The translations under genes were made by a program, and so were the position numbers. Positions 1,868 through 19,618 of a stretch of DNA of 62,355 nucleotides are shown here, piece after piece. The stretch comes from a virus (Duplodnaviria; Caudoviricetes). Position 1 is the stretch's first letter. Every line of letters begins with the position of its first letter. Below the pieces are notes generated by a model, which made no database searches, was not told the origin of the DNA, and saw only the letters and a list, made by a program, of their open reading frames with translations. The stretch is from the IMG/VR virus record IMGVR_UViG_3300030372_004273, positions 1 to 62,355 of that record; one strand, given 5' to 3'.

Positions 1868-2338
1868 TTATTTGGTTGTTGGTTTAACTTGCAAAGTTAT
1901 AAAACCAACGCCCCAAGTGCTACTACTAGGGCTGTAACCACCATTTAACAGTGCTAATAAACAAATTGGGTTTTTTGCACTATGCCCCAATTTACTTGCA
2001 AAGCTTAAAGCACTACCAACATTTTTAAAAGGTTGGTTGCTGTTGGTTGGGTTAGTGCCAAACAATAAAGCATTTTGTATAGTTGCCCTAACACCGTTGC
2101 CCTTGCCACCATAACCAAATGGCGTTGCAGGTTTATTTGGTGTTGGGTTGGTAACAACGTTTTTATTTGGTACTACTACAACGTTGTTAATATTACCATT
2201 GGCATGGGTGTTTATAAACGCCCATAACATTGTATTAGTTACGCCAGTTTTACCAGTACCATTATTAGTTAATACTGGTGTTTTAGTTTGGTTTGCACCT
2301 TTATTGCTAGTGCTAGCATTTTTATTATTTTGTACCAT
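1868..2338 (-). CDS. Hypothetical protein of 156 aa with no Asp or Glu; paralog of 2790..3221
   Basis: ATG at 2338 with AAAGGGG RBS-like element and its own terminator; shares PFGYGG..GVR.TIQ, KLGHS.K.P.CL.AL..GGYSPSS.TW with the neighbouring ORF. Confidence 0.88.
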   Translation of the reverse strand: MVQNNKNASTSNKGANQTKTPVLTNNGTGKTGVTNTMLWAFINTHANGNINNVVVVPNKNVVTNPTPNKPATPFGYGGKGNGVRATIQNALLFGTNPTNSNQPFKNVGSALSFASKLGHSAKNPICLLALLNGGYSPSSSTWGVGFITLQVKPTTK

Positions 2339-2750
2339 TGTACGACCCCTTTGGGTTACCACCTAAACATAATTGTTTGGGCTTGCTTATATTATTACTA
2401 TACTTTTAATATACTTGTAAATAAAAAAATTAACTCCTTGACAACTTTTTTAAGGGACATTTGTATTGAGCGTATAGGTGTAAGGGACTCTCTTATGACT
2501 GGGACAATCCTTTACCGTAATGTGGTAAGTATTAAGATTGTCAGTATAAGTATTAGTATTAAAAACATATAAGCACTATAACCCAACAATTATAATTGAG
2601 TAGTCCTTGATTTTTATATTATTATGCGGATCAAGGATTTTCCTTGATGATAAATAGTGATACTCTAAGAGTGTCAACGCTAACGTTCACACTATGACAA
2701 GTCTTGTTCTCGGGAATGGGACAGTCCCTGATTCTCTTGAATGGGATGGG

Positions 2751-2781
2751 AAAAAAGGACGCCAGACATAGCCTGACGTCC
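2751..2781 (-). terminator. Rho-independent terminator of the paralog 2790..3221
   Basis: GGACGCCAG/CTGACGTCC imperfect stem followed by a T run on the minus strand. Confidence 0.7.
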
Positions 2782-2789
2782 CGATAGTA

Positions 2790-3221
2790 CTAGCCTTTGA
2801 CAACTAGTTTGATGTATGGAGTCATCCAAGTTTTACTGCTTGGTGAGTATCCACCATGCATCAAAGCATGCAAGCAATTAGGACGTTTCTTAGAGTGACC
2901 AAGCTTGGCAGACTTATCAAGTATAAGCCTTAACGACATAGAGCCGTCAATCCCTCTAAGCATCCAATCTTGGATGGTTTGCCTGACACCTCCGGACTGT
3001 CCGCCATAACCAAAGGGGACAGGCTTTGGATCGTCAAGTTTTACATTGTCAAGAGGTTGGATGTAGACGTTCGCGTCGTTGCCTCCTGCATGCTCGTTGA
3101 CAAATTGCCACACGTCGTCATAAGACAACTCTTTATCGGTGACTAGGAGCTCAGCCTTTACAACTTGAGCTTTGGACTTTGGTGCAGTCTTGACAACTGC
3201 CTTAGTTGACTTTTTAGCCAT
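2790..3221 (-). CDS. Hypothetical protein of 143 aa; paralog of 1868..2338
   Basis: Likely start MAKKSTK at 3221 after AGAAAGGAG RBS; same conserved C-terminal blocks as the Asp/Glu-free protein. Confidence 0.88.
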   Translation of the reverse strand: MAKKSTKAVVKTAPKSKAQVVKAELLVTDKELSYDDVWQFVNEHAGGNDANVYIQPLDNVKLDDPKPVPFGYGGQSGGVRQTIQDWMLRGIDGSMSLRLILDKSAKLGHSKKRPNCLHALMHGGYSPSSKTWMTPYIKLVVKG

Positions 3222-3366
3222 ATCAATTCTCCTTTCTACGAGAATAGTGTAAATGCTTAATTGCAAGTACAAGTATAGAATAGCAAATAAAAAGTCCGGG
3301 AACAACAATAAAATGCTCCCCGATGATCTTTTTTTATCCCTGACATAGACAGTCAAGAAAAGAGAA

Positions 3367-3487
3367 TCACGGAATCAAGGATTTTCATTTCCTCTCTTCT
3401 CTCAAGGGAATCAAGGATTTTCAAGGATCAAGGAAGATCAATGAATCAAAGATCAAAGAAGATCCTTGACGAACCGATGATCAAGGA
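3367..3487. repeat. Non-coding cluster of TCAAGGA / TC-NNN-GA motifs
   Basis: TCAAGGA at 3375, 3411, 3421, 3428, 3481; reverse TCCTTGA at 3463; variants TCACGGA 3367, TCAATGA 3438, TCAAAGA 3446 and 3453. Confidence 0.85.
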
Positions 3488-8815: not shown

Positions 8816-9244
8816 TTACTCAACGTCCCACCGATAAAATATATGGTCATTTATTCTTACTGTCTGTGTAAACATTTCACTCCAACTGGGACTAACCCAA
8901 TATGCGTGATAATGAGTAGAACCTTCAGTAAGATCTATATGATTTAACTCACCATATAATAAACCTGATGCAATTTCCTCAGCCCATAGATAAGCTTGTT
9001 CATCTTCTATTGTTTCTGGTTTACCATCACAGTAAAAACTAAATTGACATTTATCAGGGATTGGAATGCTCGTGTTCCATGAATAATAGTATCCTTCTTT
9101 TACTACTTCGCATACAGTACTAGGATAGCGATAGTCTGCTACCCTAGTCATGATTACTTGCCCGACTGCAATTTGCCCGACGGTAGGTTCACCTCTGGCT
9201 TCAAAGTAAATTGCAGTTGCAAGACATACCAACGCTTCAAGCAC
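8816..9244 (-). CDS. Cell wall hydrolase, SleB / Hydrolase_2 family
   Basis: CLATAIYFEARGE, YPSTVCEVV, CQFSFYCDG, GSTHYHA, HIFY motifs. Confidence 0.9.
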   Translation of the reverse strand: MLEALVCLATAIYFEARGEPTVGQIAVGQVIMTRVADYRYPSTVCEVVKEGYYYSWNTSIPIPDKCQFSFYCDGKPETIEDEQAYLWAEEIASGLLYGELNHIDLTEGSTHYHAYWVSPSWSEMFTQTVRINDHIFYRWDVE

Positions 9245-9458: not shown

Positions 9459-10121
9459 CTATAATCCTGATCTAAAGGTAAGATTGATTCGCGAGCCACC
9501 TTGACCAAGTAGCTCAGGTACGCCATGTCTGCTTTGCATTTGGCTATCGCCATCAAATATAAGAACATCACCATGCTCCATAAGAAACAAATCAGTTGTA
9601 TAGGCATATCCAGTTTCACCTAGCTTGTGGTCAAGAAACTGTAGCTTGCTCGTATTTGAATGGGCTTTTATATTCAACTCATATTGTCGCCACTCAAATA
9701 TTCTTGTTGCACCAAACGATACTGAAAACACTAGGTCGTCAATATCTGGTACAGTATCAGTATGTAAAGGTATGCCCTCACTACCATCACGGTATAAACC
9801 GACTAGGCAAAAGTCATAACCTTTGAATGTTTTACGGTCAAGCCAATCATCACAAATAGCCATCTTGGTTATTTTGTTGGCTTCAACCAATAAGTCGTGT
9901 ACGTCAGGGTGAGCAGTCCAAGGTTCAGGAGTCATAAGCTTTCCTGCATAGTTAAACTCTCTATTACCAAACCCTCGTGTGGGTCTGCCCTTTATCACTT
10001 TCCCATTTGCTTCCCTATCTTGGGGTACATCCCATTGTAGAAATTTAGGGTCATATTGTTTTAAGGCTCCCTTTATATGGTAGACTGAACCACTAGAGGG
10101 ATAAAATCGTTTTATTTCCAT
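9459..10121 (-). CDS. AlkB-like 2OG-Fe(II) dioxygenase
   Basis: LYRDG...HTD (HxD), SVSFGATRIF, HGVP, terminal RINLTFR. Confidence 0.88.
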   Translation of the reverse strand: MEIKRFYPSSGSVYHIKGALKQYDPKFLQWDVPQDREANGKVIKGRPTRGFGNREFNYAGKLMTPEPWTAHPDVHDLLVEANKITKMAICDDWLDRKTFKGYDFCLVGLYRDGSEGIPLHTDTVPDIDDLVFSVSFGATRIFEWRQYELNIKAHSNTSKLQFLDHKLGETGYAYTTDLFLMEHGDVLIFDGDSQMQSRHGVPELLGQGGSRINLTFRSGL

Positions 10122-12321: not shown

Positions 12322-12843
12322 TTATTTTTTCAGTGAATATAAAGTCATACTGAAGTGGGCTGTTTCATCATTGCGTCTTATCCAACCCTTACCAAATGTA
12401 TCAAAGGTTTTCAATGAACGATAAAAGTTTTCTCTTTCTTCTGATACTCTGTCAATTATTTCTTTTGGTGATTTAGTATCTACAAGTTGAAGAGTTTTAG
12501 GACCAATGGCTCCATCTTGTGTTGCACCAATTACTTTTTGTAAAGCTTTTGATGCTCTTCCAGGACCACTATTCACAGCCCAGTCAAAGATTGAAAAGTC
12601 GACTCCGTTAGGTAAATCATCTCCCTTTACTTTATCCCAATAATTTTTCTTATATATTTCTTCTACATGATCCATTGGAATGTTTTTTAATTCATCAATA
12701 GTACATTCCCTACCAAGATATTCGTCGTAAACCTTTTTGGTTACTCCTTTATTTGTTGCACCTCCTGGATCTTTTGGGTGGTCTACAAAACCTCCCTCAT
12801 GTTTTAAAAGCATACTCAAACAATCTTTAAAGTTTTCTTTCAT
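12322..12843 (-). CDS. Lysozyme, glycoside hydrolase family 108 with peptidoglycan-binding domain
   Basis: HEGGFVDHPKDPGGATNKGVT, FDWAVNSGP, DGAIGPKT, FGKGWIRR. Confidence 0.92.
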   Translation of the reverse strand: MKENFKDCLSMLLKHEGGFVDHPKDPGGATNKGVTKKVYDEYLGRECTIDELKNIPMDHVEEIYKKNYWDKVKGDDLPNGVDFSIFDWAVNSGPGRASKALQKVIGATQDGAIGPKTLQLVDTKSPKEIIDRVSEERENFYRSLKTFDTFGKGWIRRNDETAHFSMTLYSLKK

Positions 12844-12856
12844 TTTGTTCTCCCTT

Positions 12857-13051
12857 TTATTTAACGTAAAGTAATCTTCTGGCTTGTCCTTCCGTTATGT
12901 TAAAATGATCTGCTAAATCTTGCAAACCATATTTTTTCTCTGTTGTTCTTTCTATGTGAATACCACCAGTTTTATCACCCAAAGTTTTACCTTTGTTCTT
13001 TTTCCAATGGTTTTTTACTTCATGAATAAATTCATCATTAAATTTTGTCAT
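12857..13051 (-). CDS. Small HTH protein
   Basis: LQDLADHFNITEGQARRLLY pattern; GGAG RBS. Confidence 0.6.
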   Translation of the reverse strand: MTKFNDEFIHEVKNHWKKNKGKTLGDKTGGIHIERTTEKKYGLQDLADHFNITEGQARRLLYVK

Positions 13052-13060
13052 TTTTTTCTC

Positions 13061-14980
13061 CTATGTTTGCATGACAGAGTGATTATCTTTCAACCCTCGA
13101 GTCCAAGGTTTATCACTCAAAGTTTGTTTAGCTTCCCCCCAATTAGGACCAAGTTCAGCATCTACTATACTTGGTACTTCTAACTGGACACATTCCTGCA
13201 TAATTTCTTTTATTTGCAGACATTGTTTTTCATTTTCTACACTAACATCTAACTCATCGTGAACTTGTATCATGGGTGTAATACCCTCTTCGTGTAGAGC
13301 TACCATTGCTGATTTAGTTTGATCAGCGGCTGATCCTTGAATTAGTTTGTTGAGTGCTTTATATGTAAACGCTCGTTTGATTGCAGGACCATGTTCCGTG
13401 TACGCTTCTTGATATGACATAGGTTTCCATGAACCGTAGGCATTTGGCTCCCATTTATCAAATCTACATCTACGCCCAAGCAATGTTCTTATAACTCCTT
13501 TTTGTGTAGCACGATTAGTAGCATAATCGGATAAGGCTTTTACGAATGGGACCTTTTCGTGGTAGATAGCAAACAACTCTTTTGCATCTTCATATTCTAA
13601 TCCCAAGCTTGCTGAAAGTTTCTTGCTCCCCATACCATAAAACAAGCCGAGGTTAATATCTTTAGCTTGCTTGCGTGGGACACCTACAATGTCAGACGCC
13701 ATTTGATGAAAGTCTGTTAATGGGTCTATGTTATACTGCTCTGCAAACTTTTCTGCTCCTCTAAAATTCATTAGTTTTGCATAATGCACCACAAGGCGAG
13801 GTTCTTGGCTACTATAGTCAAATGCCCCCCATAGAGTGTCTTGTTCGGGTATAAATAAGCTACGAATTAGTGGACCAATTTCACCGTGTCGTGCAGGGAT
13901 TTGTTGTAAATTAGGATTACTGTAACTAAACCGACCAGTGACTGTGCCACCAGAATCACTACGCAAAGGATGTAACTCTGCATGAATGCGACCATTAACC
14001 TGATGTTTTAATATTGTATCTATAAAGGTAGTTCTTGCCTTGTTTAACTCCCTCGCTTCTACAATCATTTTAGGTAACTCATGTTCGTGGTTAGCTAAAA
14101 ATCCCTTTGTAAAACTAGGTGCTCCAGTTTTTTCTGTTTTACCATAAGTAAGACCTATTGAATCAAAACTTTTAGCTACACTTTCAGCAGACCATATTTC
14201 TACATTTACATCAGTTTTAGCTTTTATCTTTTTTAAAAGTTCTTGTTCTCTGTAATAAAGATTTGCCTTTACGTTTTCAGCTTTATTTAAATCAACCCTT
14301 ACACCCTTTGCCCTCATGGGTATAATTGTTTTGAGTACTTTTAGTTCTAAATCAAATATGTCCTGAATGTCCTCCTTTATTATAAGGGACTTAAATAACT
14401 TCCAAAGTTTTAGAGTTAATGAAGCATCTTTTTCTGCGTATGTTCCTACATGGTGAGCAGGAAGTTTCCACATCTCACTTTTATGGCTCACACCAAATGC
14501 TTCAGCGGCTTCTCTAAGTTCTACTTCTGATTTTTTCTCTTGTAGGTAATCTTTACCTAGCGAGTTAAGTGCATAGCTAAACCTATTTTCATCTAATAAA
14601 GGAGCAACCACCATAGTGTCTACTATTCTACCTTTTACATGGATATTATTAGCCAATAACCAACCGACGTCATACGGAGCATTGTGAAATACATAGTCAC
14701 GATCAATAGATACAAGGTCTCTAACCCATTCAAGTGTAAGCCTTTCATCTAAGTTAGGACCAATTTCATGTCGTATGGGAAAGTACCATTGTCCACCCTC
14801 TACAGCTACAGCTACACCTATTATATATCCATCTCTTCTAGCCCACCCTGAACCAAGCGTGGTTAGATTAGGGTCTTTAGTTTCTAAGTCTATAGCTACT
14901 TCTGTGTAACCTTTTAAATCTGGATAACCATCAGGCATTACCCATTCAGTAGGGGGTTGAAATAGGGGGAGTTGTCTCAT
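13061..14980 (-). CDS. polA: DNA polymerase family A with 3'-5' exonuclease
   Basis: ExoI DLET, ExoII HNAPYD, motif A DYSSQEPR, motif B KDINLGLFYG, motif C VHDEL. Confidence 0.95.
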   Translation of the reverse strand: MRQLPLFQPPTEWVMPDGYPDLKGYTEVAIDLETKDPNLTTLGSGWARRDGYIIGVAVAVEGGQWYFPIRHEIGPNLDERLTLEWVRDLVSIDRDYVFHNAPYDVGWLLANNIHVKGRIVDTMVVAPLLDENRFSYALNSLGKDYLQEKKSEVELREAAEAFGVSHKSEMWKLPAHHVGTYAEKDASLTLKLWKLFKSLIIKEDIQDIFDLELKVLKTIIPMRAKGVRVDLNKAENVKANLYYREQELLKKIKAKTDVNVEIWSAESVAKSFDSIGLTYGKTEKTGAPSFTKGFLANHEHELPKMIVEARELNKARTTFIDTILKHQVNGRIHAELHPLRSDSGGTVTGRFSYSNPNLQQIPARHGEIGPLIRSLFIPEQDTLWGAFDYSSQEPRLVVHYAKLMNFRGAEKFAEQYNIDPLTDFHQMASDIVGVPRKQAKDINLGLFYGMGSKKLSASLGLEYEDAKELFAIYHEKVPFVKALSDYATNRATQKGVIRTLLGRRCRFDKWEPNAYGSWKPMSYQEAYTEHGPAIKRAFTYKALNKLIQGSAADQTKSAMVALHEEGITPMIQVHDELDVSVENEKQCLQIKEIMQECVQLEVPSIVDAELGPNWGEAKQTLSDKPWTRGLKDNHSVMQT

Positions 14981-15128
14981 CTTTTTTCACTTTCATTGGT
15001 TTTTTACATTTACAAAAAATCCATTTGTTTTTCAGCCTACGAAAAGTTGTTACCTTACTCTCCAAGCCACAATCACAAACAGCTTTAACTTCTTTATCTA
15101 GTTTGTTTGGAATGTTTAGGGTAGTCAC
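14946..15128 (-). CDS. Small Cys-rich hypothetical protein
   Basis: CDCG...CKC; fills the gap between polA and the upstream gene. Confidence 0.5.
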   Translation of the reverse strand: MTTLNIPNKLDKEVKAVCDCGLESKVTTFRRLKNKWIFCKCKKPMKVKKDETTPPISTPY

Positions 15129-15429
15129 TAACTGTTCCTTGCCTAATTAACTCTGCTTCAACTAACATTAAATAACGCCTGAGATCACGCACATCGTCGA
15201 TAATACCTTCTTTACGTTTGTCGGCTTGGGCTGATTTAAATATATCGTAGTGTTTATCCTCTACTTGTTTTTCTAGCCTGTCCCATTTACGAGCAAGCAT
15301 CATAAAAGCACCTACACCTCCTCGTTGTTTCCAACTATCGCCGTAGCTTTGCTCAGACACATGTAGCCCTTCAACATCATACAAGGCTACTCTTTCTACA
15401 ATTTTAATAATTTCACTTGGGTTTTTCAC
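15094..15429 (-). CDS. Nucleotide-modification-associated all-alpha (MazG/DUF1599-like) putative dNTP pyrophosphatase
   Basis: SYGDSWK.RG...RKWDRLE...DDVRDL..Y helical motif; adjacent to the thymidylate synthase homolog. Confidence 0.65.
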   Translation of the reverse strand: MKNPSEIIKIVERVALYDVEGLHVSEQSYGDSWKQRGGVGAFMMLARKWDRLEKQVEDKHYDIFKSAQADKRKEGIIDDVRDLRRYLMLVEAELIRQGTVSDYPKHSKQTR

Positions 15430-16603
15430 TTTTTCTGCCTTTCTTTGGTTTTATTGGATCATATAACTTTCTAGTTATCCACTCTACGCAAGCTTTTCTC
15501 CACGCTAGATCTTTAATGCTCTTTGCTGATTCTAGTGCATGGTATCTACCTCCTTCCCAAGCTTCTTTGTGTACTTCTTTTTGGTGTCTGTTTAAAAACA
15601 AACCCCACTCTTCTTTTTCGAATGTTTCTTTTTTACTTTCATCCTTATAAAAAGTATGAATTTCTCTAAAGTCAGCCATCTTTGCTCTTTTGTAATTAAA
15701 GTAACATTCCAACATGGGGACAGCTACCTCAGAAAAAATAGAGTTTTCAAACTGTACCTTTTTTAATTCATCTAAAACATCATACGTTTCTTTATCGTCC
15801 CATATTTTGAAAAAAGTATTTAACTCATCATCAAAAGTTGTAAACGAATCCATTATAGGCATTGGGTTATAACTCGTACCATCTTCACCTAAAGTTAAGT
15901 AAGGCTCGTAGTCTGGTGGCATATCTTTTAATCTTTCTAGTATATCAACATAAGCGTGAAGATTATTACTAAATTGAGTATAAGTACCAACACCTAACTC
16001 TAACCTTCCTGCAAAGTATTCTTGAAGCATAGACATGTGAACAGCGTTTGCACCATACGCTCCCCAAATTAAATCATTACTACGATTTACTACTGTCATG
16101 TTAAGTAGGTCTTTTCTTTCACTAAAAAATATTTGAGTATTACATGGGTAGTCTTTACCATTGTTTGTTTCAACTAAATCTTTTACTGGATCCCACATTG
16201 TTAAAACTGTACGTCTGTCGTTTGGAAAAGAAAGCAACCTTTCTATTACTCTATCAAACTGATCATAGCCAAACCATTTTCTCCACCTATAACCATAAGC
16301 ACCATGATACGTTATACCATCGTCTGAGTATTGGTTCATGCGTCCATTAAAAGTATTTACAAACTGCACGTCATTACGTCCTGCTAACATCCATAAACTT
16401 TCCATAAAATGGAAAAAAGGGTTAGCGTCCCGTTGTGGATAAAACAATACTCTTTCTCTTGGGTGAGTATAAGTAGTGGTAACTGGACCAGGAAACTCTA
16501 AAACATCACCACCACGAGTACTTACAGCTACCCCATTCTCTTCTAAGGACTGTTTTACTACAAAAAGTGCTTCGCTTACGTTCCTAACATAAAAATTATA
16601 CAT
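15413..16603 (-). CDS. Thymidylate synthase-fold dUMP hydroxymethylase-like protein
   Basis: NPFFHFMESLWMLAGRND, GAYG.RWR, DYPCN catalytic Cys, RSNDLIWGAYGAN (Asn at the base-specificity position, indicating dUMP), NNLHAY, plus a C-terminal extension ending WRKACVEWI. Confidence 0.82.
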   Translation of the reverse strand: MYNFYVRNVSEALFVVKQSLEENGVAVSTRGGDVLEFPGPVTTTYTHPRERVLFYPQRDANPFFHFMESLWMLAGRNDVQFVNTFNGRMNQYSDDGITYHGAYGYRWRKWFGYDQFDRVIERLLSFPNDRRTVLTMWDPVKDLVETNNGKDYPCNTQIFFSERKDLLNMTVVNRSNDLIWGAYGANAVHMSMLQEYFAGRLELGVGTYTQFSNNLHAYVDILERLKDMPPDYEPYLTLGEDGTSYNPMPIMDSFTTFDDELNTFFKIWDDKETYDVLDELKKVQFENSIFSEVAVPMLECYFNYKRAKMADFREIHTFYKDESKKETFEKEEWGLFLNRHQKEVHKEAWEGGRYHALESAKSIKDLAWRKACVEWITRKLYDPIKPKKGRKSEKPK

Positions 16604-16682
16604 ATAAAGCTCCTACGCTATTTGATTAATATTTTGGGGTACAAACATACTACCCACCTTGTTTATGACCGTCTGAAGGGCT

Positions 16683-17990
16683 TTAAACGGAGTCATTTTT
16701 TGGCTCTATTGGGTCAATATTAAAAAACTGCAAGTTTTTATTACATTTTTGAAAAACTAGGTCATCTACTTCACCTTTGTCTGTTTTTTCATAACCACCA
16801 TTAATAAAGTCAATATATTTTTGTGCTACATTTACTTTATCAAACTGAGGTAAAATCTGTTTTCCGTTTTCTTGCAACTTTAACCACCTGACTTTTACTG
16901 TTACAGCATCGTCTACTATGTCTGCAAATTCTTGAGGAGTAGAATCGTGTGGTATTTGAATATAGTTTTGTTTATCACCCTGACTATGAAAAGGATGTTT
17001 TACTTTTTGAGATGAAGTTATCATACCTAAGTCTGTTGCCATTGGAACAGCACCACAAATAATCGCTTCTACAGTTGTTCTATTAAAATGGGATCCGAAC
17101 CCTGAATATTTAACCGACCAACTTGGATCAATTTGTACACGAGCGTTTTTTAAAATAGAAAAAACTTTTTCGTTTGGTAAAACTCCTGCATAATGCATTC
17201 CGTGTTCTAAAGCATTATCCCAAATACGAGTACCATCAGGTTCAAAGTACTTTTCTTTACACTTATCTTTACTTGTCATGTACCTATATTCAATCCCTGC
17301 TCCACCAACTATTTTGCTTTGCTCATTTTTCATATAAGAGATTGCTCTTACTAAAGTATCCATACGTTTCCAAGCTTTGAATATTTGTACTGCAACCAAA
17401 CCAGTCCTTTCTTCAAATGAATTTAAGTTTTCTTGGGTAACATCAAAAGGGTTACATATCATAGTGCGAGGTAAATCCATTTTAGCAGAAGATTCATAAG
17501 CTGAGTTATGTACACAAACAGAGCCGATAAAGTGTTTTGAAACTTTTGCTAAGTGAGGATACAAATGAGGTAAGTTACCATCATGTATGATAGCTATGTT
17601 TTTAGTTCCATTATCATAAAGTTCTAACCACTCCTTAACACCTTCATTATCTTTATTTAACGTAGGTACTGGAATATGCCAAAGGACAGCATCATACTTA
17701 CCCATATCATGCACAAAGTTTTTTCTATGGTAAGAACTTAGATATGGTATCTTTGGTACTCTAATCCAACCTCTTGCTTGGTGGTGTGGATATCCAGTAC
17801 CTTCAAGCTTTGTAGTGTATTCCCTTATATCTTTAGGTAGCTTTCGCATAGGAGTATACTTGTCTCTAGGGATAAGCATACGGAAATCAACTTCATGTCC
17901 TAACTCTTTTAGCCCTTGAGCTAAAAACTCTACATGATTTATAATACCACCATAATCTTGAATCTGATACATTGTCATAAGTATTCTCAT
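16683..17990 (-). CDS. GT-B fold glycosyltransferase (GT4-like), putative DNA-modifying
   Basis: MRILM...YGGI..H...LA.GL..LGHEV N-terminus; KAWKR.D.LVRA; TTVEAIICGAVPMATD donor-binding segment. Confidence 0.8.
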   Translation of the reverse strand: MRILMTMYQIQDYGGIINHVEFLAQGLKELGHEVDFRMLIPRDKYTPMRKLPKDIREYTTKLEGTGYPHHQARGWIRVPKIPYLSSYHRKNFVHDMGKYDAVLWHIPVPTLNKDNEGVKEWLELYDNGTKNIAIIHDGNLPHLYPHLAKVSKHFIGSVCVHNSAYESSAKMDLPRTMICNPFDVTQENLNSFEERTGLVAVQIFKAWKRMDTLVRAISYMKNEQSKIVGGAGIEYRYMTSKDKCKEKYFEPDGTRIWDNALEHGMHYAGVLPNEKVFSILKNARVQIDPSWSVKYSGFGSHFNRTTVEAIICGAVPMATDLGMITSSQKVKHPFHSQGDKQNYIQIPHDSTPQEFADIVDDAVTVKVRWLKLQENGKQILPQFDKVNVAQKYIDFINGGYEKTDKGEVDDLVFQKCNKNLQFFNIDPIEPKNDSV

Positions 17991-18910
17991 AGTACTGCTC
18001 CCTCAGGTGGTTTTTGGAAAAGGTCATCTTGCTTACCATTATATCTACTTCGTGGTTTACCCTCCCCATTTTTTACTCGTATATACTTATCAAACTCACA
18101 AAGGCTATGTTCAATGGTTCGCATATCTACTTGGTCTTTTGGACCAAACCTAAAAGGCAAATGATCTTGAGCTTCGTATAATAGAGTTTGCATTTCTAAG
18201 TTAGCTTGAGTTTGTGAAAGCGACTTTTTTAAATCTCTCTTGTATAACCTATTCAGTCCCCTCTTTGCTCCTGGTCCTGCGTTAGCCCAAGTATAACGGT
18301 CTTTTGCCGTCCCCAAAACAGACGTGTAGTTGAGGTCGGTAACGACTTCGTATGACATAAAGCCTCCCCCTCCCCATCCCCTAAACTTACCCATCGCTTC
18401 ATGCGTGGCTTGTAACGACTGCGTTTCTTGGGATACCTTCGCCAGATCTTCTTTCGCTTTCCATATCGGGATGAGAAACTCATCTACAACAACCTCAGAT
18501 TTAGGTTTCTTTATACCTTGATTAGTAATTATATATGCTCCAGTAAAAGTTCGTAAACCTTCGTGTAACCTTTTTTCTAAAATAAATTTAGTTGATTCAG
18601 GTTCCCAATCTTTTACCCAACCATGCTCTTCAGCAAACTCACTTGTACCTATCATTCTAAACAAACAACAGTTAAATATAATTTCAGCAGGAGGACGATT
18701 GTCATTTGGTTTAGTCCAGTTCTGACGCATCCAAACTGTTACCCTATCATTTTCCCTAAACGGATTTGTAAATTTATAATCCCTTAATATGGGGTCGTAA
18801 GTCCAAGGAGGAGGCTTTCCTGCACTCCTCACTTTGAACATGTTATGGCGTTCATCTATCCAATAGAAAAACTTTTCAACCATACTTTCATCTAATAACT
18901 CACTAACCAT
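17987..18910 (-). CDS. 5hmdU DNA kinase-like protein (aGPT-Pplase1, helical glycosylase-like fold)
   Basis: FFYWIDERH...PPPWTYDPILRDYKFTNPFRENDRVT, FTGAYII, FMSYEVVTDL, GPGAKRGL, IEHSLCEFDKY.R. Confidence 0.85.
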   Translation of the reverse strand: MVSELLDESMVEKFFYWIDERHNMFKVRSAGKPPPWTYDPILRDYKFTNPFRENDRVTVWMRQNWTKPNDNRPPAEIIFNCCLFRMIGTSEFAEEHGWVKDWEPESTKFILEKRLHEGLRTFTGAYIITNQGIKKPKSEVVVDEFLIPIWKAKEDLAKVSQETQSLQATHEAMGKFRGWGGGGFMSYEVVTDLNYTSVLGTAKDRYTWANAGPGAKRGLNRLYKRDLKKSLSQTQANLEMQTLLYEAQDHLPFRFGPKDQVDMRTIEHSLCEFDKYIRVKNGEGKPRSRYNGKQDDLFQKPPEGAVL

Positions 18911-19541
18911 TTGCAGGACGCAACTCTATAGCTTTAGCTTCTATAGCTATCTTAACATCTTTTAAACTTCCAGGAGAAGGATTTAAGTTTCTTAGCTTAT
19001 CTAAAGCTTCTGCCAAGTTTTTAGATTCTAGTATTACTTGTTGGTTGCGATGTCTGTTAGTGCCAACTTTAGGAGTTGGCTCCTTTACCAAAGCTACAAT
19101 TACATCGCTAGGATCAAACCCATTACTACTCTTGGGTTGAGTTACTTTTGGTTTTTCTTCATTTACTTCCATTTTGTTCTCCACAATTTGATTGATATAT
19201 TGGTCTGAATATAGTTTTGCTTTTTTCTTTACGAGTGAATGTAAAGCCAAGCATGAAGTATTATGGTTAGGGAATCCTTTATTATTGTCCCATCTACCAC
19301 CTTCTATTTCGGCACAATCCTTCAGACCAAAGGACTGCCAAATAGAATCAATTAATTCTTTGCTATAATTTTCTTTTAAACTTTCAAGGCTATCGTCGTT
19401 GTACACAACTAGATTACAAAGCATTTCTGGATGAGCCAATACACCCATCGCTTTAGAAGCTACTCGTAAATCTTTAAATTTATAAAACAAAAAAGGTGGA
19501 CCATCACTTCCTGGAACACCATCGCTAATAACATAAAACAT
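18903..19541 (-). CDS. Hypothetical protein heading the modification operon
   Basis: Likely start MFYVISDG at 19541 after GAAAGGG; overlaps the kinase-like gene. Confidence 0.7.
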   Translation of the reverse strand: MFYVISDGVPGSDGPPFLFYKFKDLRVASKAMGVLAHPEMLCNLVVYNDDSLESLKENYSKELIDSIWQSFGLKDCAEIEGGRWDNNKGFPNHNTSCLALHSLVKKKAKLYSDQYINQIVENKMEVNEEKPKVTQPKSSNGFDPSDVIVALVKEPTPKVGTNRHRNQQVILESKNLAEALDKLRNLNPSPGSLKDVKIAIEAKAIELRPANG

Positions 19542-19570
19542 ATATTTCCCTTTCTTTGGAAAATTAAGTA

Positions 19571-19597
19571 ATGCCCCTATTCTAATAATAGGGGCAT
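19571..19597. terminator. Stem-loop after the DUF932 gene (terminator or processing site)
   Basis: Perfect 11-bp stem ATGCCCCTATT/AATAGGGGCAT. Confidence 0.6.
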
Positions 19598-19618
19598 CAC
19601 AGGACAACAGTTATTTTA

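What the first reader, a model, noticed from the sequence alone, without database searches (positions are those of the whole stretch)
15094..19541. Thymidine hypermodification cassette with a glycosyltransferase in place of the amino acid:DNA transferase
Seen: a co-oriented, mostly overlapping run next to polA of an unknown ORF, an aGPT-Pplase1/5hmdU DNA kinase-like gene, a GT-B glycosyltransferase, a thymidylate synthase homolog with dUMP-type Asn, and an all-alpha pyrophosphatase-like gene. Established: in M6/ViI/PhiW-14-type pathways 5hmdU is incorporated, phosphorylated on DNA by this kinase family, then substituted by an amino acid:DNA transferase (aGPT-Pplase2). I see no such transferase, PLP enzyme or radical SAM gene here. 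Inference: the product could be a sugar-phospho-methyl-uracil, or a base J-like glycosyl-hmU alongside phospho-hmU, and so possibly an undescribed base.
Basis: partly seen in the sequence, partly recalled or inferred. Interest (0 to 1): 0.88.

Follow-up and report, generated by a model that had tools for sequence, protein, structure and literature searches.

The report
Kinase-free sugar-on-hydroxymethyluracil phage DNA cassette
An uncultured marine phage carries a gene block that most likely swaps thymine for 5-hydroxymethyluracil and then hangs a sugar on it without the DNA kinase used by every characterised thymine-hypermodifying phage, a chemically untested but widespread way of disguising phage DNA.

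Summary
The gene run is real: on the minus strand, behind a terminator-like hairpin, lie a 212-aa unknown, a 307-aa aGPT-Pplase1/HMUDK_hel protein, a 435-aa GT-B glycosyltransferase, a 396-aa thymidylate-synthase homolog, a 111-aa unknown, then PolA. One correction matters. The "kinase-like" gene is only the helical domain (homolog of M6 gp55), not the P-loop 5-hmdU DNA kinase (M6 gp54). The complete 62-kb genome gave no match to the kinase, amino-acid:DNA transferase, aGPT-Pplase3, thymidylate-kinase or Tet/JBP models. So the sugar-phospho-methyl-uracil idea has no support, and a base J-like glycosyl-hmU is the better reading. The TS homolog has the published dUMP-hydroxymethylase signature (Asp143, Cys146, Asp169, Asn177). 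The GT model is confident; its nearest folds are GT4 enzymes, T4 DNA alpha-glucosyltransferase and phage SP-15 glycosyltransferases. Of 80 viral loci with this GT, 64 carry Pplase1 and 69 the TS homolog, mostly adjacent. In sister phages the same slot holds a TET-associated glycosyltransferase plus a radical SAM enzyme. The MazG-like call for the 111-aa gene is unsupported. The role of Pplase1, which has an invariant Cys-Glu motif, is open. This scan has already noted the same cassette type in at least 20 other genomes. I rate it a new variant of a known kind.

The parts
19568..19600 (-). terminator-like hairpin (14-pair stem, then a T-rich tail) between the DUF932 gene and the cassette
   Evidence: It overlaps the TTG-started 5' extension of the first ORF, so the ATG at 19541 is the likelier start.
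18903..19541 (-). 212-aa protein of unknown function. It sits where M6 has its kinase gene but has no Walker A motif. Only its C-terminal ~50 residues are conserved among relatives, and the position holds other small ORFs in some relatives.
   Evidence: No Pfam, PHROG or NCBIfam family. Best atlas score 0.76.
17987..18910 (-). aGPT-Pplase1 / HMUDK_hel protein (307 aa). It is a homolog of M6 gp55 and consists of the helical domain only. Glu267, Cys271 and Glu272 are invariant.
   Evidence: PF18723 5.7e-53. M6 ORF055 at 37.7% identity, 1e-43; phmmer 8.6e-50. Invariant columns. AF2 pLDDT 87.2. No significant PDB fold match.
16683..17990 (-). GT-B (GT4-like, retaining-type fold) glycosyltransferase of 435 aa. 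Its start overlaps the Pplase1 stop by 4 nt. Inferred to be a DNA 5hmU glycosyltransferase.
15413..16603 (-). thymidylate-synthase homolog (396 aa) with a dUMP-hydroxymethylase signature: Asp at E. coli position 143, Cys146, Asp169, Asn177
   Evidence: M6 gp58, 1.1e-77; best PDB hit MilA CMP hydroxymethylase, 5.9e-19. Criteria from PMC13326640 sections 24 and 28.
15094..15429 (-). 111-aa conserved helical protein of unknown function, kept between the TS homolog and PolA in relatives. The MazG/pyrophosphatase call is not supported.
13061..14980 (-). family A DNA polymerase with a 3'-5' exonuclease domain (context; it would have to incorporate 5hmdUTP)

Best explanation
This is a pre-replicative plus post-replicative thymine-replacement pathway that works without a DNA kinase. 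Step 1 (inferred from residue signature and homology): the TS homolog hydroxymethylates dUMP to 5hmdUMP. Host kinases make 5hmdUTP, and the phage PolA incorporates 5hmdU in place of some or all thymidine. Step 2 (inferred from fold, gene position and co-occurrence): the GT-B enzyme transfers a sugar from a host NDP-sugar to the 5-CH2OH of hmU in duplex DNA. Because the fold is GT4/retaining-like, the product is probably an alpha-glycosyl-oxymethyl-uracil, a relative of trypanosome base J. Step 3 (open): the aGPT-Pplase1 protein is the constant partner of whatever enzyme modifies hmU. It most likely recognises and flips or activates hmU in DNA through its invariant Cys-Glu site. It is not a kinase and is not shown to be a transferase. 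The sugar shields T-containing restriction sites.
For: TS homolog. In the alignment with E. coli ThyA, Asp at position 143 is shared by all 9 phage homologs, and Cys146, Asp169 and Asn177 are invariant in all 10 sequences. By the criteria in PMC13326640 sections 24 and 28 these mean hydroxymethylase, not 5-hydroxylase, and a dUMP substrate. The best PDB relative is a hydroxymethylase, MilA, at 5.9e-19, against about 1e-9 for true TS. The M6 TS homolog gp58 scores 1.1e-77.

GT. The AF2 model has pLDDT 93.1 and pTM 0.91. Foldseek against PDB finds GT4 enzymes at 1e-11 to 1e-13, and T4 alpha-glucosyltransferase-DNA complexes, one with an HMU base, at about 1e-10 with TMq 0.56-0.59. Against the viral library, two phage SP-15 glycosyltransferases rank 2 and 7, and 'DNA alpha-GT' entries rank 9 and 15.

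Linkage. Of 80 viral loci with a GT homolog (36-100% identity), 64 have Pplase1 and 69 have the TS homolog within 5 kb, mostly 0-100 nt away on the same strand.

Slot logic. Among 22 loci related through Pplase1, the gene after Pplase1 is this GT in 3, PF20691 TAGT in 16 (with radical SAM/SPASM in 15), and another possible GT-B plus an FkbM methyltransferase in 1. Two loci are cut off.

No kinase or AADT. See for the window. In the 5 nearly complete relatives, 0 of 5 match the kinase model and 0 of 5 match the AADT model above its cut-off. With M6 proteins as queries, 0 of 80 loci hit.

GC-only palindromes, which a T modification cannot protect, are missing: GGCC 0 against 41.7 expected, GCGC 0 against 33.5, CCGG 4 against 16.7.
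Against: No chemistry was measured. The acceptor of the GT is inferred only from context and fold, and GT4-like folds also act on lipids, small molecules and proteins. The query GT does not itself reach any Pfam cut-off. TCGA is strongly depleted (19 against 90.9 expected) and ACGT mildly, which is not what blanket protection of T would predict. The window lacks the HD hydrolase (M6 gp59-like) found in 56 of 80 related loci, and no dUTPase or dCMP deaminase was seen in the 32 ORFs scanned with Pfam. Replacement of T may therefore be partial. Kinase absence rests on P-loop models and a Walker A scan, so a kinase of another fold could be missed. DNA of this phage type assembles from ordinary metagenomes in 14 studies, so the modification does not block sequencing as it does for YerA41.
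Confidence: 0.6

Rival explanations
1. Pplase1 is the real group transferase, and the GT plays the part that the kinase plays in M6. In this reading the sugar only activates the 5-CH2OH as a leaving group. Cys271 attacks C6, an exocyclic methylene forms, and an amine or other nucleophile ends up on the base.
For: The Cys-Glu motif is invariant in 33 of 33 aligned homologs and is kept in M6 gp55 and in 6 of the 7 longer fused forms; in P0241 the match ends before the motif. It aligns with the Cys region of the M6 amino-acid:DNA transferase (hhalign E 0.016; PF18724 partial hit at E 0.002). By Table 3 of PMC5889632, SP10 has only a kinase-fused PPlase domain and no second PPlase, yet that paper groups it with the thymidine-hypermodifying phages.
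Against: A glycoside is a much poorer leaving group than phosphate (general chemistry). Relatives add radical SAM/SPASM or FkbM methyltransferase genes next to their GT, which looks like tailoring of a sugar that stays. The hhalign probability is only 2.8%. M6 gp55 was left out of the minimal M6 reaction, in which gp54 and gp51 sufficed (PMC8989533 passages).
Confidence: 0.12
2. The GT does not act on DNA. It glycosylates a host envelope component, a virion protein or a small molecule, and the phage DNA carries plain 5hmU (as in SPO1) or something made by Pplase1 alone.
For: The best PDB matches are non-DNA GT4 enzymes (HepE, PimA, MshA, BshA). The acceptor cannot be read from sequence.
Against: The GT start overlaps the Pplase1 stop by 4 nt inside a replication module. 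It travels with Pplase1 in 64 of 80 loci and with the TS homolog in 69 of 80. The same slot in sister phages holds PF20691, a family named for its association with TET/JBP DNA-base oxygenases.
Confidence: 0.15
3. The TS homolog is an ordinary thymidylate synthase or a cytosine-directed enzyme (5hm-dCMP or 5-hydroxy-dCMP synthase), so the sugar, if on DNA, sits on a cytosine derivative.
For: TS homologs next to GTs make glycosylated 5hmC in T-even phages and arabosylated 5-hydroxycytosine in RB69 and DLP3 (PMC13326640 abstract and sections 24, 28).
Against: Asn177 is invariant, whereas dCMP enzymes have Asp. Asp169 is kept, whereas 5-hydroxylases have Asn. Position 143 is Asp, whereas true TS has Leu. 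The adjacent PF18723 gene is known only from thymine pathways.
Confidence: 0.08

Closest known systems
Thymidine hypermodification clusters of Pseudomonas phages M6/YuA and PaMx11, Salmonella phage ViI, Delftia phage PhiW-14 and Bacillus phage SP10 (Lee 2018 PMC5889632; Lee 2021 PMC8989533)
   Same: Both have a TS-homolog dUMP hydroxymethylase and an aGPT-Pplase1 gene close to PolA. The order Pplase1 ... TS ... PolA is syntenic with M6 gp55-gp58-gp62. Pplase1 is 37.7% and the TS homolog 46% identical to the M6 proteins.
   Different: No P-loop 5-hmdU DNA kinase, no amino-acid:DNA transferase (PF18724), and no PLP, radical SAM or FAD enzymes. A GT-B glycosyltransferase is present instead, so the product should be a sugar adduct, not an amino-acid-derived one.
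Base J pathway of kinetoplastids (JBP1/2 thymidine hydroxylase plus JGT) and phage 5mYOX/T-dioxygenase plus GT clusters (PMC13229309; Pyle 2024, bioRxiv 10.1101/2023.12.21.572611)
   Same: The proposed end product class is the same: a sugar on the hydroxymethyl group of uracil in DNA. Sister phages use a TAGT-family GT-A enzyme in the same slot.
   Different: Here hmU would be made before replication by a TS homolog. No Tet_JBP domain was found. The GT is GT-B, not GT-A. The Pplase1 partner has no counterpart in the base J pathway.
T4 alpha-glucosyltransferase (GT-B) acting on 5hmC DNA
   Same: GT-B fold. Foldseek E about 1e-10 and TMq 0.56-0.59 to the AGT-DNA complexes 1ya6, 1y8z and 1y6f. 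Both follow the scheme TS-homolog hydroxymethylase first, DNA glycosylation after.
   Different: 12-13% identity only. The predicted base is hmU, not hmC. T4 has no Pplase1.
SP-15 / YerA41 / Carin-5 type phages with glycosylated thymine derivatives (PMC13697223)
   Same: Sugar-bearing thymine replacement. SP-15 glycosyltransferases rank 2 and 7 among viral fold matches. Related phages RP13, EP_H11 and IME92 carry aGPT-Pplase1 without a detectable kinase (passage).
   Different: Those phages attach sugars through a dihydroxypentyl-type linker, have a UDG-fused giant PolA, and their DNA resists sequencing. Here PolA is an ordinary 639-aa enzyme, and the DNA assembles from standard metagenomes.

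Membership tests
PF18723 HMUDK_hel / aGPT-Pplase clade 1 | Pfam model matched over the gathering score across its whole length | tested here: met
   180.5 bits against a cut-off of 25; profile positions 2-278 of 281
PF18723 HMUDK_hel / aGPT-Pplase clade 1 | homology to the clade-1 protein of a characterised T-hypermodifying phage (M6 gp55) | tested here: met
   tblastn 37.7% identity, 1e-43; phmmer 8.6e-50
5-hmdU DNA kinase (5-HMUDK, PF18748 P-loop kinase) | P-loop kinase domain with a Walker A motif | tested here: not met
   PF18748 and PF02223: no match at E<=1 in six frames of the whole genome (the PF02223 control rang in 14 of 14 genomes). Walker A was found only in helicase- or primase-size ORFs and one 76-aa plus-strand ORF. 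M6 gp54 by phmmer found nothing at E<=10.
Amino acid:DNA transferase (PF18724 ADDT, formerly aGPT-Pplase2) and aGPT-Pplase3 (PF18746) | model match over the cut-off | tested here: not met
   PF18724 best 12.9 bits (cut-off 26.2), lying inside the Pplase1 gene. PF18746 none at E<=1.
M6/ViI-type thymidine hypermodification pathway | kinase plus AADT acting in turn on 5hmdU DNA | tested here: not met
   Both genes are undetected in the window. In 5 relatives at least 90% complete, 0 of 5 match the kinase model and 0 of 5 match the AADT model above its cut-off.
GT-B fold glycosyltransferase (GT4-like) | two Rossmann-like domains; structural match to solved GT-B enzymes | tested here: met
   AF2 pLDDT 93.1. 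Foldseek 8.6e-13 to HepE; 352 PDB matches at E<=0.001. A profile of 51 homologs hits GT4 chains at 2e-4.
GT-B fold glycosyltransferase (GT4-like) | Pfam Glycos_transf_1 or Glyco_transf_4 over the cut-off | tested here: inconclusive
   The query gives only PF13439 at E 0.017, 15.6 bits against 28.5. Many of the 120 listed homologs carry precomputed PF00534 or PF13692.
DNA base glycosyltransferase | transfers sugar to a hydroxylated pyrimidine in DNA | not testable with these tools
   Context only:
dUMP hydroxymethylase (TS-family) | TS fold with catalytic Cys146 | tested here: met
   PF00303 66.3 bits against 24.3; Cys146 column invariant
dUMP hydroxymethylase (TS-family) | Asn at E. coli position 177 (uracil), an acidic residue at 143 (hydroxymethyl product), Asp kept at 169 (not a 5-hydroxylase) | tested here: met
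   alignment A4; criteria read in PMC13326640 sections 24 and 28
dUMP hydroxymethylase (TS-family) | produces 5hmdUMP | not testable with these tools
   needs an enzyme or in vivo assay
   No Pfam hit other than DUF1681 at E 0.035. No NCBIfam hit. A profile of 10 homologs against PDB found nothing relevant. PF07659 found nothing at E<=10. The only lead is an atlas cluster in which 11% of members carry DUF1599.
Base J-type pathway (Tet/JBP oxygenase plus GT-A) | Tet_JBP dioxygenase | tested here: not met
   PF12851 none at E<=1. The 2OG oxygenase at 9459-10121 is AlkB-like (PF13532).

The most novel reading that the evidence does not exclude
The virion DNA carries an undescribed base, an alpha-linked glycosyl-5-hydroxymethyluracil made without any DNA kinase. 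In addition, the PF18723 protein is a general hmU-in-DNA recognition and activation module with a catalytic Cys-Glu site. Evolution has coupled this module in turn to kinases, GT-B and GT-A glycosyltransferases and even bacterial MmeI-like restriction-modification enzymes.
Probability: 0.3. Interest if true: 0.85.

Novelty: new variant of a known kind. Interest (0 to 1): 0.62.

Why it matters
Every biochemically reconstituted thymine hypermodification described in the papers I read (M6, ViI, PaMx11, PhiW-14, SH-Ab 15599) goes through 5-phosphomethyl-dU made by a P-loop kinase. This cassette keeps the hydroxymethylase and the enigmatic clade-1 Pplase but replaces everything else with a glycosyltransferase. 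It recurs in at least 80 viral contigs, and near-identical DNA occurs in marine metagenomes from 14 studies (13 if the possible source sample's study is left out). If the product is glycosyl-hmU, base J-like DNA would be common in ocean phages. That would yield new DNA glycosyltransferases for 5hmU labelling. It would also give the first functional handle on PF18723, a family with more than 1600 homolog clusters and no assigned activity.

Tried and rejected
Nucleotide search of the cassette against cultured phages found no match. tblastn of the GT against the same collection found no match at 1e-5, so no cultured carrier of this GT is on hand.

The Pplase1 fold search against PDB gave nothing significant (best E 0.27; QNG1/DUF2419 and AGOG glycosylases at TM about 0.3). 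The HhH-glycosylase-like fold stated in the literature could be neither confirmed nor denied here. A profile of 33 Pplase1 homologs against PDB sequences gave only chance-level hits.

Complex prediction of GT with Pplase1 gave no verdict (score 0.00, controls not run). It is not evidence either way.

For the 212-aa and 111-aa proteins, the atlas, PDB profile, Pfam, PHROG and NCBIfam searches gave no function.

A search for GT-Pplase1 fusions through the 'longer' homolog search found only 7 long proteins, none with a GT domain. The fusion reported by an earlier scan note was therefore not reproduced here. That search is word-limited, so it is weak evidence of absence.

The look-up of sequencing runs listed no RNA holder, and all runs are kept as contigs. 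I therefore did not lay reads, because contigs cannot show base modification.

Iyer et al. 2013 (the original aGPT-Pplase prediction) is not held. I rely on what Lee 2018 and 2021 say about it.

Supplements are closed. Supplementary Figures S7 and S8 of PMC8989533 (omission experiments with M6 gp55 and ViI gp160), the contig lists of Pyle 2024 and Dataset S10 of PMC13229309 could bear on whether this exact cassette is already catalogued.

Literature searches for a described Pplase1-plus-GT or glycosyl-hmU phage pathway were. I saw listings and abstracts only, except for the passages and sections cited above. None describes it. Pyle 2024 (passages) does report, in general terms, GT-B genes near thymidylate-synthase homologs in metaviromes.

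Full report
WHAT IS THERE. The window is a whole IMG/VR virus record of 62,355 bp that CheckV rates 100% complete. The finding lies in a minus-strand replication module. Read in the direction of transcription, the module holds a Pam3 gp34-like gene, an AEP primase, a UvrD-type helicase, a 95-aa ORF, a DUF932 gene and a terminator-like hairpin at 19600-19568. Then come the cassette and a family A DNA polymerase. The cassette is a 212-aa ORF (ATG at 19541), a 307-aa ORF, a 435-aa ORF, a 396-aa ORF and a 111-aa ORF. By coordinates the junctions are an 8-nt overlap, a 4-nt overlap, a 79-nt gap and a 17-nt overlap.

THE 'KINASE-LIKE' GENE IS NOT A KINASE. The 307-aa protein matches PF18723 (HMUDK_hel) at 5.7e-53 over positions 2-278 of the 281-position profile, so it consists of that helical domain alone. 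Among cultured phages its best relatives include M6 ORF055 at 37.7% identity, and several records annotate the match as aGPT-Pplase clade 1. In M6 the kinase is a different protein. Pfam assigns gp54 to PF18748 (HMUDK_HMUD1, a P-loop kinase) and gp51 to PF18724 (amino acid:DNA transferase), in line with Table 1 of Lee 2021 (passage). Table 3 of Lee 2018 shows that SP10 gp186 fuses a kinase to a PPlase domain. That fusion probably explains the Pfam name, though this is my inference.

Six-frame searches of the whole genome gave no match at E<=1 for PF18748, PF02223, PF18746 or PF12851. PF18724 gave only a 12.9-bit partial hit inside the Pplase1 gene itself. phmmer with M6 gp51, gp52, gp53 and gp54 found nothing at E<=10, and no small ORF carries a Walker A motif. 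Five relatives that are 90-100% complete also lack the kinase (0 of 5) and have no AADT match above the cut-off (0 of 5).

THE TS HOMOLOG. It reaches the Pfam TS cut-off. It is far closer to the M6 TS homolog gp58 (1.1e-77) and to the hydroxymethylase MilA (5.9e-19) than to true thymidylate synthases (about 1e-9). Lee et al. 2026 (PMC13326640, sections 24 and 28) give diagnostic positions in E. coli numbering. Asn177 means dUMP and Asp means dCMP. Leu143 means a methyl product and an acidic residue means hydroxymethyl. Asp169Asn marks 5-hydroxy-dCMP synthases. I aligned E. coli ThyA, fetched, with the window protein, M6 gp58 and seven homologs from related loci. All nine phage proteins have Asp at 143. 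Cys146, Asp169 and Asn177 are invariant in all ten sequences. This is the dUMP-hydroxymethylase signature. Activity itself is inferred.

THE GLYCOSYLTRANSFERASE. Pfam barely sees it (Glyco_transf_4, E 0.017). It has 246 homologs at E<=0.001, and many of the 120 listed carry Glycos_transf_1-type domains. A model built on 51 homologs is confident (pLDDT 93.1, pTM 0.91). Against the PDB it matches retaining GT4 enzymes (HepE 8.6e-13, PimA, MshA, BshA). At ranks 16-29 it matches T4 DNA alpha-glucosyltransferase bound to DNA, including DNA with an HMU base (E about 1e-10, TMq 0.56-0.59). Against predicted viral structures, the best named matches are two glycosyltransferases of phage SP-15 (ranks 2 and 7) and 'DNA alpha-GT' entries (ranks 9 and 15). 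According to passages of PMC13697223, SP-15 thymine carries sugars. The fold fits a DNA glycosyltransferase but does not prove one.

CONTEXT IS THE STRONGEST ARGUMENT. I fetched 80 viral loci that encode a homolog of this GT at 36-100% identity. Of these, 64 have a Pplase1 homolog and 69 a TS homolog within 5 kb, usually 0-100 nt away on the same strand. Several of the loci without them are cut at the contig end. None hits the M6 kinase or transferase.

I also fetched 22 loci through Pplase1. They share the backbone primase-helicase-DUF932-Pplase1-[slot]-TS-111aa-PolA, and only the slot varies. It holds this GT in 3 loci. In 16 it holds a PF20691 TET-associated glycosyltransferase, with a radical SAM/SPASM enzyme in 15 of them and an NrdR-type zinc ribbon in 10. 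In 1 it holds a different, possibly GT-B protein (hhalign E 0.003, probability 10%), and that locus also has an FkbM methyltransferase downstream of the TS homolog. Two loci end before the slot. The two glycosyltransferase types exclude each other: 0 of the 80 GT-B loci have TAGT or the radical SAM gene. A slot that swaps one glycosyltransferase for another between a hydroxymethylase and a thymine-pathway protein is what diversifying selection on a DNA sugar would produce.

WHAT PPLASE1 DOES IS OPEN. The family is large: 1673 clusters at E<=0.001, and the 120 listed are nearly all about 300 aa and standalone. Glu267, Cys271 and Glu272 are invariant in 33 of 33 aligned homologs. The Cys-Glu pair is kept in M6 gp55. 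It is also kept in two of the three thymidylate-kinase-domain fusions (the match to the third, P0241, ends before the motif), in three 1820-1872-aa bacterial proteins with MmeI-type methylase/endonuclease domains, and in one 1302-aa eukaryotic protein. The motif aligns weakly with the region of M6 gp51 that holds a cysteine. Lee 2021 showed that a conserved Cys and a nearby Glu are essential in the clade-2 enzymes (passage).

Two readings remain. In one, Pplase1 is an hmU-recognising and activating partner for whatever catalytic enzyme sits beside it. In the other, it is a transferase in its own right. In M6, gp54 and gp51 sufficed without gp55 (passage). A complex prediction between the GT and Pplase1 gave no verdict.

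WEAKER POINTS. The MazG-like label for the 111-aa gene has no support. The gene is conserved in this position (54 of 80 loci) but its function is unknown. The 212-aa gene is not a kinase, and only its C-terminal ~50 residues are conserved. The window lacks the HD hydrolase found after PolA in 56 of 80 loci, and no dUTPase or deaminase was found in the ORFs I scanned. Thymine exclusion may therefore be incomplete.

Palindrome counts are suggestive only. GGCC and GCGC are absent (41.7 and 33.5 expected) and CCGG is rare, while most T-containing tetramers are near expectation. However, TCGA is also depleted (19 against 90.9).

KNOWN OR NEW. Pyle et al. 2024 reported from metavirome mining that GT-B genes often neighbour thymidylate-synthase homologs (passage). 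PMC13229309 links phage T-dioxygenases with GTs. PMC13697223 notes phages with aGPT-Pplase1 but no kinase. My five literature searches turned up no paper that describes this Pplase1-GT-hydroxymethylase cassette or shows glycosyl-hmU in a phage. Supplements that might list such contigs were closed.

This scan has noted the same type of cassette in at least 20 other genomes. I tested two of those variants on this lineage: the kinase-less state and the TAGT plus radical SAM form. I could not reproduce the reported GT-Pplase1 fusion. Near-identical DNA occurs in marine metagenomes from 14 studies between 2014 and 2025, one of which may be the source of this record.

VERDICT. The feature is real and recurrent, and is best read as a kinase-free glycosyl-hmU pathway (confidence 0.6). 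It is a new variant of the known thymidine-hypermodification kind, not a new category. Interest is 0.62.

Noticed in passing
whole window: GGCC and GCGC do not occur at all (41.7 and 33.5 expected from a maximal-order Markov model). CCGG occurs 4 times (16.7 expected) and TCGA 19 times (90.9 expected). GGTACC, GTGCAC and CTTAAG are also absent. CGCG is not avoided (27 against 15.6).
   Followed up: partly
P0244, P0246, P0247 (bacterial proteins, 1820-1872 aa; one on an 8.1-Mb contig): The PF18723 helical domain, with its Cys-Glu motif intact, sits at the C-terminal end of MmeI-like type IIL restriction-modification proteins (PF02384, PF07669, PF20466, PF20473). It is also found in a 1302-aa eukaryotic protein (P0245). 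This suggests a role in sensing or processing modified thymine in defence.
   Followed up: partly
L003 6891-8975 and 14-15 further related loci: Sister phages fill the slot after Pplase1 with a TAGT (PF20691) glycosyltransferase and a radical SAM/SPASM enzyme, preceded in 10 of the 16 loci by an NrdR-type zinc-ribbon ORF. L014 instead has a 348-aa possible GT-B in the slot and an FkbM methyltransferase after the TS homolog.
   Followed up: partly
window 12857-13061, compared with L028 and others: An HD-domain hydrolase (M6 gp59-like) follows PolA in 56 of 80 related loci but is missing here. In the window, PolA is followed by a 64-aa ORF and a GH108 lysin.
   Followed up: partly
window 15413-15700 (C-terminal part of the TS homolog): The window's TS homolog (396 aa) carries an insertion of about 45 residues, rich in Lys and Glu, near its C-terminus. 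It is absent from the eight other phage homologs aligned (325-357 aa).
   Followed up: no
window 9459-10121 (-): AlkB-like 2OG-Fe(II) oxygenase (PF13532, 3.1e-19). It is not Tet/JBP. I know of no link to the cassette.
   Followed up: partly
window 8816-9244 and 12322-12843 (-): Two separate cell-wall hydrolases (Hydrolase_2, and GH108 with a PG_binding_3 domain) lie in the early and replication region.
   Followed up: no
window 1868-3487: Other first-reader notes on this genome describe a TC-free island and TC/GA-linked survival of restriction sites. If true, this could reflect a sequence context of the T modification. I did not test it.
   Followed up: no
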